A DNA stretch of 64,000 nt from the human T2T-CHM13v2.0 reference genome, Homo sapiens (GCF_009914755.1 NC_060930.1); one strand, 5' to 3'. Counted from the first letter of the stretch, positions 14,500-50,869 are shown. Made by a program: numbers and translations. The notes: generated from the sequence alone by a model not told the origin.

Positions 14500-15250
14500 G
14501 ACAGCAAGCTACCAGGCTAGATTTTAAGTGCAGCTGTATGTGACTAGGTCACAGGGACAGCAGGCTTCAGGTTACATTTGAAGTGTCACAGTGTTCCCAG
14601 TTCAGCCCGCAGTCAATCTGGAAAGGGTGGCACAGCCATTTCCAACACCTGCCACCTCTTGAGTTCAGAACCACTGTCTACCTGCCCTCACCCACTCAGC
14701 CCTACCCAGGGCTGGCCATCAAAAGTTGTTCTCTGTCAGGCAGTCACTGACTGTGGTAGCTTTGTCTCTCCAGGGCCTTGGATGGGGGCATGCTGGTCCT
14801 CTGTGTCACTCTGATTAAGGGAGGGGGATGGTTGGGCTCTTGGCTTCTCCCTCCTATGAGGCTGTGTGATCCTTAGGAGTTTGCTTCACCCTTTCCCTAC
14901 CCCGCCTTCCCCTTGAGCCCTCCATCCTGTCCCCTAGGCTCTTCTGGTGCCATCCAAGGGGCAGAGGCCCAGTGCCGGCTCTCCTGGGAGGCACGAGGCC
15001 TGCAGTGGCGCCACTCTCAGCCCTGGGCTTATGGCCTGGCCCTGCCTGCAGCCTCCTGGCTCCAGCCCAGCTGCCCTTGGAGGCACCTTTCCATGCCAGG
15101 TTGAGAGGAAGGGAGGCATCCTTTACAGCAAGTTGGGGGTGCTGTGCCCAGCTTGGCTCAGTCCTCTTCCCCTTCCCCGCTGGGTGCCCCTGCCTGGGCT
15201 GCTCTGGAAAGGAAATCGCCGCCTGCATTCCTGGCAGATGCCCCCTCTTA
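14500..15250 (-). pseudogene. Two CUB-like remnants
   Basis: LPGMQAAISFPEQP..SW..LPLNL..LQAGPG; then LE.....DCLTE/TFDGQP ... TGNTVTLQM (14575-14601). Confidence 0.5.
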
Positions 15251-15949
15251 GGAGTTGAACTGTGTCCCCCAAAAGATATGTTCAAGTCCTGATCCCACCC
15301 CGCTGTGAATGTGACCTTACTTGGAAATAGGGTCTTTGCAGATGTAATTGGTTAAGATGAGGTCACTAGGGCGGTCCCTTGGCCTGGGCAGTGAGTTTGC
15401 AGGTGAAGTGTTAAGTGTCCTGGTGTTCCCAGCTCACGCCACCTCCTTCTCGCCCGGAAGCTCAGGAGTGCCCTGGCTCCCTGGAGACTGCACCTCCGTC
15501 TCTGCACCCGCACACCCCTAACGCCCATCCTTGCTTTTTCTCTTTAGCTTTTCCCATAGCCCAACGCTGCCTATATTATCTAATCCTTTCTTTTTTTTTT
15601 TGGTATATCTTCCTCCATAGATTTTTTTCCCCAATTCAACAAAAATTTATTGAGCACCGACTGTGTCCACAGGAACTCCCTAGGCTTTCAGCTGGGGCAC
15701 TGCAATGAATCGGTCACGATTCCCCAGGTGTCCCCTGAAACATCGCTTTTTTTGTTTATTTAATTGTCTTTCCACTAGAGTTGAATCATTCTGCAAGCAG
15801 GGATTTCTGCTGTGTCTATTGTTGTGTCCCAAGGGCTTAGGGTGGCATGTGTCATCATTCGGCTCTCAATGCGTATCTGTGGCTGAGTCATGGATGAATG
15901 GCTGTGGGAGAGGCGCTTATGGGGGCTTCCCGCTTCCACTGGGCACTCG

Positions 15950-16940
15950 AGAGCCCACCCTGCAGCTCAGTCCCGAACCTTCTCGATCTCAGGACTCCAT
16001 GATCTCAGGGTCTCCGCTCGGAGGAGCAGCCCTCTCCGAGAACAGCCAGTGTCTCCTGACTCAGGGACAGGGACCTGAGGAGTACCCACACAGGCCCAGG
16101 CCAGCTCTTTCCTTTCCCATGCCGGCTGGGGGCAGGAGGGCACATCTGAAAAGTGCTGAACACTCTCTAAACAGTTGGTCAGTAGTTCAACCTCTCCGCC
16201 TGCATATTCTCATAAAGGGAAAAGCAAGGGCGGTGGGGTTGGTGTCATGTTTTCTGTCTAATCTACCATGTATCCACTGGGGCATAGGATTGTGGAAGTG
16301 AGGAAAAAGATGGGAGGAGGGGCAAGGACTGGTTAGGCAGTTGGAATAACTGAGTTTATCCAGAAAGACAGTGATTCAGGCTGGTACAAAATCACAATGC
16401 TGACTTAACGTGCTGTGCCTTGTTTGCACTGTGGTAACTTGACAGTATTTTTATCTCCTATGGTATTTTGTTAAACTTATGTATGTATTTATTCATTTTT
16501 AGAGACAGGGTCTTCTATGTTGCCCAGGCTGGCCTTGAACTCCTGGGCTCGAAGGATCCTCTTGCCTTAGCTTCCTGAGTAGCTGGGACTACAGGCGCAT
16601 ACCACCGCACACAGCTATGCAATGATTTTGATACTTCTCTGTATGGGAGCTCTTACATGGCTATAGTTTCCAGAAATTTTGGAATTGAGAACGTGTATCC
16701 AATTGTTGGCTATCGATTCTGAGTGTAGCTCCTAACTGCAGTGTATGAACATTGGCCTCTACTGAGCTCTGCAGTTGGTGTGTGATTTTGGGTGCTATAG
16801 CTGGGTATTTTTCAGACTCCAGAAGCAAGGCTAATTAGAAACATCTTTACCTTTGTAACCTGCCACCAAAATCATTTGTTAAGTGCACACTGGGAGGGGA
16901 AAGGAAAGTTAAATGGTCCTGGCCCTCTGCAGGTATTACA
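15950..16940 (-). pseudogene. Two CUB-like remnants (paralogous to 49.7-50.7 kb)
   Basis: PGPFNFP..ND/FWWQVT/KGKD..LALL...SGNYSH ending at a gtaaga donor (16657); next module has LGLCGYSS. Confidence 0.55.
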
Positions 16941-47565: not shown

Positions 47566-47999
47566 CATACTGCACAGCGAGCACCACACAACTACAATGT
47601 CTCACCCTCCATTTTCTCCATCCCATGCCACCAAGGTGACTTTATTGAGTCCTATTCTTTAGTTTGTATTATGAGAACAACTGACTGACTTATTGAAGAT
47701 ATAGATAGAATTTCAAATTACATATCCTATGGGCCACACTGGTATGTCCCACGATAGCTGTAGAACCAACAATGCAATTATGGCTAAGATTTATCCACAC
47801 TTACTAGGAGTCCTTCTTGCATCATCCCATTTAATTATCCCAACAGCCTTTATTAGGTGGATACGTCATTGTCCCCATTTTACAGACAAAGAAGCTGAGG
47901 CTTTGCAAAGGGAAGTAACTTGCTCAAGGTCAACAGCGGAGAAGTGGATTGCTGTTTGGACACACAGTGCCACGTGTGGTGTTAGGTGGGCTGATCTCC

Positions 48000-50640
48000 C
48001 CCCAGCTCCACCAAGAATCACTGTGCAAGTGTGGATGAGCCTCCTTCACAGCAACTCAAGGTGTGAAGGTCCTGTCGGAGGTGGACATGGGGAACGTACA
48101 ACCTTGCTGCATCTTGGGGTATAACAAGAATGAGCAAATCCATTTCCTGAGTGTGGTGTTTAAAGCCCCACCTCCTGGTAAAGGCAGTCAGTCGGTCCTT
48201 CTGGCTCCAAGGCTCCTTGTTGTGCCAATGAAGAGAGAACCTCAAGGTTGGCCTCTGGTAAAGCAGCTGCCAGGGAGGGCCCACCTCCCCCGGGAAGCAG
48301 AGAGTGTGCTGGCATGGTATCCTGTCGGGACTGCACGCCCAGGGCAGAAGCACACAGCGTTGCAGGGTTTATGCCTGTGGAATCGCTTGGGAAAGGTCTC
48401 CAATCTTAGAACTATCCTATTCTAGAGCTTTCTAGAATATTCAGCTCAGCTTATGCCTTTTACAATCCCAGGGCATCAGAACTATTTAAGGGATTTGCAT
48501 GTAACTTGGATGAATTGTGCTATGAATCTGGGTTAGTGTGGCTTCACCTATGTCAACAAGTCTGTGCCCTCTGACTCTGACCTCTCCCCAGGGATTCCGG
48601 GGATTCCCTGATGGCGAAGATATACTTCCATGGGGCCACTCATTTTTTGCCCTGTGCATAGGAGTCTTCTGCTTTTCCCATTATCCCCATTATCCACTCC
48701 TTTCCTGTCAGCACTTAGGAACCCAACCCTCACCTCCACTTCACTATGGAAGAGAGGCCAGGTATTAGTCTGTTCTCACACCACTATAAAGAAATGTCTG
48801 GGCTGTGTGCGGTAGCTCACGCCTGTAAACTCAGCATTTTGGGAGGCCAAGGCAGGTGGATCACGAGGTCAGGAGATCAAGACCATCCTGGCTAACACGG
48901 TGAAACCTTGTCTCTACTAAAAATACAAAAAATTAGCCAGGTGTGGTGGTGGGCGCCTGTAGTCCCAGCTACTTGGGAGGCTGAGGCAGGAGAATGGCGC
49001 GAACCCAGGAGGCGGAGCTTGTAGTGAGCTGAGATCGCACCACTGCGCTCCAGCCTGGGCAACAGAGCGAGAATCCGTCTCAAAAAAAAAAAAAAAAAAA
49101 AAAAAGAAATGTCTGAGAATGGGTAATTTGCAAGAAAAGAGGTTTAATTGGCTCATGGTTCTGCAGGCTGTACAGGAAGCATGGCAGCATCAGCTTCCGG
49201 GGAGGCCTCAGGAAACTTACAGTCATGGCAGAAGGCAAATGGGGAGCAGGTGTCTCACATGGCCAGAGCAGGAGGAAGAGAGTGGTGGGGAAGGTACTAC
49301 ACATGTTTAGACAATGGGATCTCACAAGAACTCACTGTTTTATTATTATTATTATTATTATTATTATTATTATTATTATTATACTTTAAGTTTTAGGGTA
49401 CATGTGCACAACGTGTAGGCTTGTTACATATGTATACATGTGCCATGTTGGTGTGCTGCACCCATTAACTCATCATTTAGCATTAGGTATATCTCCTACT
49501 GCTATCCCTCCCCCCTCCCCCCACCCCACAACAGTCCCCGGTGTGTGATGAAGAACTCACTGTTGTGATGACAGAACCAAGGGGGATGGTGTTAAACCAT
49601 GAGAAACCGCCCCTGTGAGCTAATCGCCTCCCACCGGGCCCCACTTCCAACATTGGGGATTACAATTAGCCAGGAGATTAGGGCGGGGACACGGATCCAG
49701 ACCACATCAGGCCATATAAGGGCTGGTGTCTTCTGGCTCAGGGTTCGTGGCCTGAAGTGGCTTCTAGATGCCCACAATCAACCGTTAATGTTCCTTATCA
49801 GCAGAGCACGGTGGAGAACACAGAAAATCCCTTAGTCTCATTTTGGCCAATCGTACAGGCTGCTTCTCTATCACATTCTCATAAGAACGCGAGTATGATG
49901 AGCTTGCCCCATGCTGGTCCTCTCGTGTTCCCTTTCTGTGGCGGTAGGTCTGTGGAAATGAAGAAAGAGAAGCATGGGAGGAACAGGTCTTCCGTGCGGA
50001 GACCACACACTGTGTGGGTGAGCCTGAGCCGTGGGAAGGTGACTGTATTTTCCTCTTTCCCCTGAGCAATGCTTAAAGTTGGGACAAAATTAAGAAGGTC
50101 TATTTTATTTATTTTGCTGTATTGTGTGGGCTGGACACATTTTTGTTTTAGTCTACTATAATTTTTTTTAAATTTTAGAAACAGCATCTCTCTCTGTCAC
50201 CCAGGCTGGAGTGCAGTGGTAGAATCGTGGCTCACTGCAACCTTGACCTCCTGGGCTTAAGTGATCCTCCCACCTCAGCCTCTTGAGTCCCTGGGAGAAC
50301 AAGCATAAGTCCCCGTACGTGGCGCCTGTAATTTTTATTATTAAACATTGGGTATTTGAATAGCTCTTAAGTAGCTAACAGTTGCCAGAAATCATTAAGC
50401 TGTGATTTTCCTCATTGCAGATGCCGAGTGCACCTCATTAGAGCAATGTATGGGCACTGACTTACCAATAATGAGCCCAGCAGATGGTGTGGAATGTGGG
50501 TGATGTGCAGGCTGTTTTCAGATACATGAAGCAAGGCTAGTTGGATACATTTTTACCTTTGTAATCTGCCACCAAAATCATTTAGTAAGTACATTTTATG
50601 ATGCACAGAATACCGTGATAAGGTATCCTGGCTTTACAAA
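48000..50640 (-). pseudogene. Block of four CUB-like remnants
   Basis: KPGY..ND/FWWQIT/KGKN/CIQLAL; VCG..GKLIILAF..ACT/LYDW ... (MST insertion) ..EVRVGFLS; CTGQKMSGP; LEPEGPTDCLYQEVGL. Confidence 0.65.
48761..49709 (-). mobile_element. MSTA LTR with nested AluY (~48800-49105) and L1PA 3' fragment (49340-49550)
   Basis: TSDs: ggcca (LTR), aagaaatgtctg (Alu), aagaactcactgtt (L1). Confidence 0.9.
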
Positions 50641-50869
50641 AACAAGTTAGCAAGTCCTTACTCTCTCAAATATGACAAGCAGTAATGACAAAGATGTCCC
50701 AAGCATCCTCTAAACGTATGTAAGTTATTAGTATTCTACCACGCTATATTCAGGAAAAGGTTTGCTAAATGCTAGTTATGATCAACAGAGACAGATTGCT
50801 TCAGCAAAATGTCAGCGAAGGGCTCTAGTCAATTTACTCAGTTACAGATGTTTGTAAAATCACTTAGCC

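What the first reader, a model, noticed from the sequence alone, without database searches (positions are those of the whole stretch)
14500..50700. Ancient internal duplication of a multi-CUB block 34 kb apart, with apparently shared lesions
Seen: 16650-16970 aligns with 50360-50700 (gaagcaaggctaattagaaacatctttacctttgtaacctgccaccaaaatcattt vs gaagcaaggctagttggatacatttttacctttgtaatctgccaccaaaatcattt; gacaagcaataatgaca vs gacaagcagtaatgaca). The next module also matches (ttatgagaat at ~16.2 kb and ~49.88 kb on the minus strand), and LE.....DCL recurs at ~14.75 and ~48.19 kb. Both copies need the same frame changes (ND/FWWQ.T/KGK) to give the CUB pattern. Inference: the block duplicated, or was gene-converted, after inactivation, or the ancestral CUB was atypical.
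Basis: partly seen in the sequence, partly recalled or inferred. Interest (0 to 1): 0.7.

Follow-up and report, generated by a model that had tools for sequence, protein, structure and literature searches.

The report
Ancient non-coding duplication upstream of MAS1
Two stretches 34 kb apart upstream of the human MAS1 gene are worn copies of each other, likely from a duplication over 100 million years ago; they show no CUB or other protein-coding signal, and a better-kept 79-base core is likely a gene-control element.

Summary
The duplication is real and larger than reported; the CUB reading is not supported. With young repeats removed, window 16,041-24,914 and 49,718-56,526 form a same-strand chain of 9 collinear anchors (reversed control 0), about 4 kb at about 64% identity. 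A 79-bp ungapped core is 85% identical (67/79). Genome-wide patterns from it hit only these two places; an old-repeat control pattern hit 7 others. No CUB signal: Pfam blank, and frameshift-tolerant CUB scores (10.7-13.0 bits) lie below the window median (13.2), against 54-77 bits for real CUB relics. The core has no third-position bias in the four frames tested, so there are no shared lesions. The 'LE.....DCL' pair is noise. Matched divergence is 0.50-0.67 substitutions per site, which I infer means the stem-placental lineage. The core is better kept than neutral simulation gives (26 of 1,400), which suggests regulatory constraint or old gene conversion. No coding relic of MRGPRH, the gene rodents carry near Mas1, was found. 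Verdict: an ordinary kind of object, apparently undescribed, of modest interest.

The parts
16041..17158 (+). Copy A, block 1 of the duplication (non-coding)
   Evidence: aligns to 49,718-50,865, score 12,224 vs controls up to 1,704; 62-68% identity in aligned pairs
16809..16887 (.). Copy A core, 67 of 79 bases identical to 50,515-50,593 without gaps; likely cis-regulatory (inferred); carries splice-like words on both strands
16936..16969 (.). Second conserved word in copy A (TGACA-type repeat), partner 50,666-50,699
   Evidence: only these two places in the genome at up to 1 mismatch
16476..16629 (-). Alu left-arm monomer in copy A only, with its own target-site duplication (FLAM-like, name recalled)
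   Evidence: aligns to Alu positions 3-132
17388..20012 (.). THE1/MST-type LTR element (name recalled) in copy A only, 5-bp target-site duplication, LTRs 89% identical; postdates the duplication
22914..23055 (+). Copy A block 2, old L1M-like piece likely present before the duplication; partner 52,640-52,781
   Evidence: score 3,094, 66%; only 1,364-1,877 to other L1 pieces of the window
23537..23962 (+). Copy A block 3 (non-coding); partner 52,808-53,607
   Evidence: score 5,070, 60%; a 32-mer from it is single-copy at up to 3 mismatches
24239..24914 (+). Copy A weak tail (anchors 24,239-24,378 and 24,885-24,914); an L1 begins at about 25,062 and no further homology is found
   Evidence: (borderline: 1,799 vs null mean 1,495, max 1,894)
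49718..50865 (+). Copy B, block 1
50515..50593 (.). Copy B core
50139..50343 (-). Alu right-arm monomer in copy B only, with its own target-site duplication (FRAM-like, name recalled)
   Evidence: aligns to Alu positions 123-286
52640..52781 (+). Copy B block 2
52808..53607 (+). Copy B block 3 (interrupted by an Alu at 52,890-53,207)
55951..56526 (+). Copy B weak tail, ending about 1.9 kb before the first annotated MAS1 exon (58,461)
   Evidence: gene table

Best explanation
The two regions are same-strand, collinear, non-coding copies of one segment of at least 4 kb upstream of MAS1, likely made by a local duplication on the stem-placental lineage, and their 79-bp core is likely a cis-regulatory element kept by selection in both copies. 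Shown: the collinear chain, about 64% identity, two detectable copies in the genome, different later insertions in each copy, no CUB signal, no codon signal. Inferred: an age of roughly 110-150 million years; origin by unequal crossover or template switch; later spreading to 34 kb by L1, LTR and Alu insertions; transcription-factor binding as the reason the core decayed more slowly. The target gene (MAS1 is nearest) is untested.
For: Chain: (9 of 10 listed ungapped anchors collinear after a low-complexity filter; reversed control 0). Copy number: searches find only the two loci; the control pattern from an old repeat finds 7 others. Independent later insertions: different Alu arms with separate target-site duplications, and an LTR element in A only. 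Divergence: K2P 0.43-0.60 per block; simulation-matched 0.50-0.67. Core excess: 13 of 5,000 permutations; 26 of 1,400 neutral simulations, and 16 of 852 among those with 8-14 anchors. Non-coding: differences by codon position 3/3/4 with 6 of 8 changed codons non-synonymous, no bias in the three minus frames; no stable RNA fold, z +0.9 to +1.6; no Rfam hit in the blocks.
Against: The core excess is modest (about 2%) and rests on my uniform-rate simulation with assumed indel and transition settings. No cross-species, chromatin or reporter data could be examined. The listed RefSeq enhancers (178-911, 44,929-45,581) overlap neither copy. The genome DNA search is seed-limited: it did not recover block 3's own partner, so copies near 60% identity elsewhere would be missed. 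The DNA between the copies shows no clear paralogy to the flanks, so a simple head-to-tail unit is not demonstrated. The age uses recalled branch lengths.
Confidence: 0.5

Rival explanations
1. The same ancient duplication, but wholly neutral: the core is more alike by chance or through an old short gene-conversion tract.
For: About 2% of neutral simulations reach the core's score; no annotation overlaps it; no codon or RNA-structure signal; nearby same-strand copies can convert (general knowledge).
Against: Four further anchors cluster within 800 bp of the core, block 1b is the best-kept block (68%), and the excess holds in two tests.
Confidence: 0.3
2. The core is a relic non-coding exon or promoter-proximal exon end of a lost MAS-family gene (MRGPRH type) or of an unannotated RNA. 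On the minus strand both copies keep AAG|GTAAA inside an invariant run; on the plus strand B has a 63-nt AG...GTAAGT segment.
For: Splice-like words in the invariant runs. Mouse Mrgprh is named with Mas1 and Pnldc1 in the Igf2r cluster (PMC4666383, one passage). MRGPRH is reported in placentals and marsupials (PMC6504862, passage).
Against: No MAS/MRG coding relic from -20 kb to +94 kb with human profiles (pseudogene controls 219-789 bits) or with 12 MRGPRH-like proteins (best score near the blocks 3.6 bits, null 6.7). No homology of the blocks to 23 kb at MAS1L. Copy A lacks the canonical plus-strand donor. MRGPRH appears older than the inferred date.
Confidence: 0.12
3. Two independent insertions of an uncatalogued low-copy ancient transposon.
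For: Dfam could not be searched; the genome search is seed-limited.
Against: Only two copies found, 34 kb apart on the same strand, and the homology runs through several unlike blocks including an L1M-like piece.
Confidence: 0.05
4. A decayed multi-CUB gene duplicated or converted after inactivation.
For: A short string resembling the CUB 'C.W.I' region can be assembled from three minus-strand frames.
Against: No CUB in Pfam for 150 ORFs; none of the 150 scored genome hits lies in the window; own profile at most -1.2 bits; DNA profile blank; frameshift-aware scores below the window median while 23 of 24 artificially decayed CUB relics score higher.
Confidence: 0.02

Closest known systems
Segmental duplications (WGAC/SEDEF definition; PMC6129265, abstract read)
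   Same: Over 1 kb, low copy, collinear, intrachromosomal.
   Different: About 36% mismatch plus many indels, beyond the 10% (WGAC) and 25% (SEDEF) error limits, so it would be expected to be absent from such catalogues.
Paralogous conserved non-coding sequences (PMC3595034, abstract read)
   Same: A short non-coding stretch better kept between paralogous copies than its flanks.
   Different: Those derive from the vertebrate whole-genome duplications and are conserved across eight vertebrates; this pair is local, inferred to be mammalian in age, and its cross-species conservation is untested.
CUB-domain pseudogenes (chr10 relics L030, L031; CUBN-pseudogene label recalled)
   Same: Nothing beyond a short look-alike string.
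   Different: They score 39-77 bits with the CUB profiles; the blocks score at background.
MAS1 / MRGPRH gene pair
   Same: Rodents carry a MAS paralogue in this neighbourhood.
   Different: No coding relic in human, and the duplicated unit stops about 1.9 kb short of the first MAS1 exon.

Membership tests
CUB domain (PF00431) pseudogene | Profile match above background in some frame | tested here: not met
   best score in the blocks -1.2 bits; reversed window 5.9; chr10 relics 40.6 and 58.6
CUB domain (PF00431) pseudogene | Match when frameshifts and stops are allowed | tested here: not met
   DNA profile: none of the 8 listed hits, best 1.7 bits, in block 1; 10.7-13.0 bits vs median 13.2, 95th percentile 17.1 of 126 tiles
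CUB domain (PF00431) pseudogene | Past coding constraint (third-position or synonymous bias between copies) | tested here: not met
   3/3/4 in the open plus frame; 4/3/5, 3/5/4 and 5/4/3 in the minus frames; only 10-12 differences, so low power
Segmental duplication | More than 1 kb of collinear homology | tested here: met
   1,525 aligned pairs in five blocks
Segmental duplication | Low copy number | tested here: met
   control 42; seed-limited search
Segmental duplication | At least 90% (WGAC) or 75% (SEDEF) identity | tested here: not met
   64% over aligned pairs: it works like one but falls outside the operational definition
Interspersed repeat family | Many dispersed copies | tested here: not met
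   2 loci for three core patterns vs 8 loci for the control
Interspersed repeat family | Match to a Dfam/RepBase consensus | not testable with these tools
   no such library; neither core is among the masked stretches that the hub's table lists (longest 20 only)
Paralogous conserved non-coding element | Better kept between paralogues than the flanks | tested here: met
   13 of 5,000 permutations; 26 of 1,400 simulations; modest
Paralogous conserved non-coding element | Conserved across species, with regulatory activity | not testable with these tools
   no other mammalian genome or chromatin data held
MRGPRH / MAS-family pseudogene | Relic of the 7TM coding exon | tested here: not met

The most novel reading that the evidence does not exclude
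The two cores are paralogous promoter-proximal or enhancer modules of a MAS-family gene duplication; human lost the MRGPRH coding sequence outright, but both control modules outlived it and now act on MAS1.
Probability: 0.12. Interest if true: 0.5.

Novelty: new member of a known kind. Interest (0 to 1): 0.2.

Why it matters
It removes a false CUB-gene lead. It also marks two candidate control elements for MAS1 (angiotensin-(1-7) receptor, recalled) that standard duplication catalogues would be expected to miss at 64% identity. If both are constrained, they are a small natural test of how duplicated enhancers survive without a duplicated gene.

Tried and rejected
CUB: rejected by five tests. 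One search scanned 150 ORFs drawn from 190 listed; 13 had weak Pfam matches, all under the curated cut-off, none CUB. Coding exon of an unknown gene: the plus-strand peptide found no relative in a library that holds mammalian proteins (word-limited, weak evidence). In the human genome it found only the partner copy and one hit at E 2.2. Atlas hits were under 0.9 and the PDB hit had E 0.72. The three hits are repeat proteins whose scores sum 4-7 weak stretches, which I read as chance. MRGPRH/MAS relic: none. Homology to the MAS1L region or to the short flanks of nine MRG loci: none above null (only 23 kb at MAS1L seen). Structured RNA: none. Upstream extension to 13.4/46.8 kb: borderline (1,984 vs null max 1,983 of 40), not claimed. 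Duplicated PNLDC1 piece: one 47-bp match only (only the last 10 kb of the gene held). A shared Alu that would make the event primate-age: rejected, the monomers are different arms. Literature: searches listed no title or abstract describing this duplication; the library lacks most subscription papers and no supplements were opened.

Full report
Observation. After masking high-copy repeats, the strongest self-match that I did not recognise as a repeat is 16,648-16,887 vs 50,362-50,593 (69.8%, E 1e-26). With young insertions cut out, it extends to 16,041-17,158 vs 49,718-50,865 (score 12,224; reversed, complemented and reverse-complemented controls 1,599-1,704). Further collinear blocks follow: 22,914-23,055/52,640-52,781 (3,094) and 23,537-23,962/52,808-53,607 (5,070), and weak ones at 24,239/55,951 and 24,885/56,497 (borderline). 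An ungapped scan listed 10 anchors after a low-complexity filter (dropped rows not counted); 9 are collinear and the reversed control gave 0. Stripped lengths are 4,312 and 3,669 bp. The LE.....DCL pair is noise.

Not a common repeat. DNA searches with either copy return only the two loci. Three patterns from the core region (32 and 35 letters at up to 3 mismatches, 23 letters at up to 1) return the same two. A 32-letter pattern from an old repeat in the window returned 7 other loci, so the method can see ancient families. The limit is real: the DNA search with block 3 missed its own 60% partner. Dfam could not be queried.

Not CUB. The Pfam CUB search of the genome scored 150 of 302 candidates, none in the window. 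Pfam on 150 ORFs from the blocks gave no CUB. A profile from 18 human CUB exons scored at most -1.2 bits in the blocks, 5.9 on the reversed window, and 40.6 and 58.6 on two chr10 relics. The DNA version was blank too. A frameshift-aware alignment gave 10.7-13.0 bits against a window median of 13.2; the relics scored 54-77 raw, and 23 of 24 further-decayed versions still beat the best block score. The core's differences show no third-position bias in the open plus frame or the three minus frames. The 'shared frame changes' follow from reading one conserved non-coding stretch in three frames.

Age and history. Identity is 63.7% over 1,525 aligned pairs, K2P 0.43-0.60 by block (shuffled pairs reach 56-58%, so these figures are rough). 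Simulations reproduce the anchor count at 0.50-0.67 substitutions per site. With recalled branch lengths (about 0.17 from human to the placental ancestor, about 0.4 to the therian ancestor), 0.25-0.33 per copy falls on the stem-placental branch, roughly 110-150 million years ago; this is inference. It fits the insertions: each copy has its own Alu monomer, of different arms and with separate target-site duplications; copy A alone has an LTR element whose LTRs are 89% identical; both share an L1M-like piece closer to each other than to other L1 pieces in the window. By eye, much of 25-47 kb is L1, LTR and Alu sequence (family names recalled). The remainder shows no clear paralogy to the flanks.

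The core. 16,809-16,887/50,515-50,593 is 67 of 79 identical with no gap. That exceeds a permutation null (13 of 5,000) and neutral simulation (26 of 1,400), modestly. It is not coding by the tests above, has no protein relative and no RNA fold. The invariant runs contain words that resemble NR5A/ESRR, SOX/TCF and TALE-homeodomain sites (recalled motifs, not scanned) and splice-like words on both strands. I commit to a cis-regulatory element kept in both copies (0.5), with neutral relic or conversion (0.3) and relic exon or promoter of a lost gene (0.12) as rivals.

MRGPRH lead. One passage of PMC4666383 names Mas1, Mrgprh and Pnldc1 together in the mouse Igf2r cluster (figure not seen). A passage of PMC6504862 reports MRGPRH in placentals and marsupials. 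Human MAS/MRG profiles and 12 MRGPRH-like proteins found no relic from -20 to +94 kb, and 23 kb at MAS1L shows no homology to the blocks. The link is circumstantial only.

Comparison and verdict. It works like a segmental duplication but lies beyond the 10% and 25% error limits of WGAC and SEDEF (PMC6129265, abstract). The core resembles paralogous conserved non-coding sequences (PMC3595034, abstract), though those come from whole-genome duplications. Passages of PMC6267961 concern the other side of MAS1. Eight locus or topic searches listed no title or abstract describing this pair; supplements were not opened and public alignment tracks could not be seen, so it may be recorded there. Real duplication, wrong protein reading, new member of a known kind, interest 0.2.

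Noticed in passing
window 17,388-20,012 and L009:6,972-8,990: Full LTR element (THE1/MST type, name recalled) with an Alu in its internal part; a second copy about 73 kb downstream is 86% identical internally.
   Followed up: partly
L009:5,600-5,761, minus strand (outside the window, near the 3' end of MAS1): Best non-MAS1 hit of the MRGPRH profile, 10.1 bits vs null 6.7; probably a chance hydrophobic match.
   Followed up: no
window 52,120-52,345: Two short AG...GT-flanked, exon-like segments in copy B, seen by eye; no Pfam match above cut-off for the ORFs scanned and no clear counterpart in copy A.
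   Followed up: partly
window 14,152-14,228 / 47,855-47,932 and 24,460-24,635 / 56,135-56,245: MIR-like pieces (name recalled) sit at matching places and orientation before and after both copies; they may be shared pre-duplication insertions, but scores are at noise level.
   Followed up: partly
window 31,469-31,515 vs L011:1,963-2,009: A lone 47-bp match (77%) to a place inside PNLDC1; no extension.
   Followed up: yes
window 33,643-34,740: Young L1 3' piece next to an Alu that is split by a second L1 3' piece in the opposite orientation.
   Followed up: no
window 5,730-5,846: Rfam Metazoa_SRP hit, 72.4 bits; it overlaps an Alu-like stretch and is most likely an Alu monomer.
   Followed up: no
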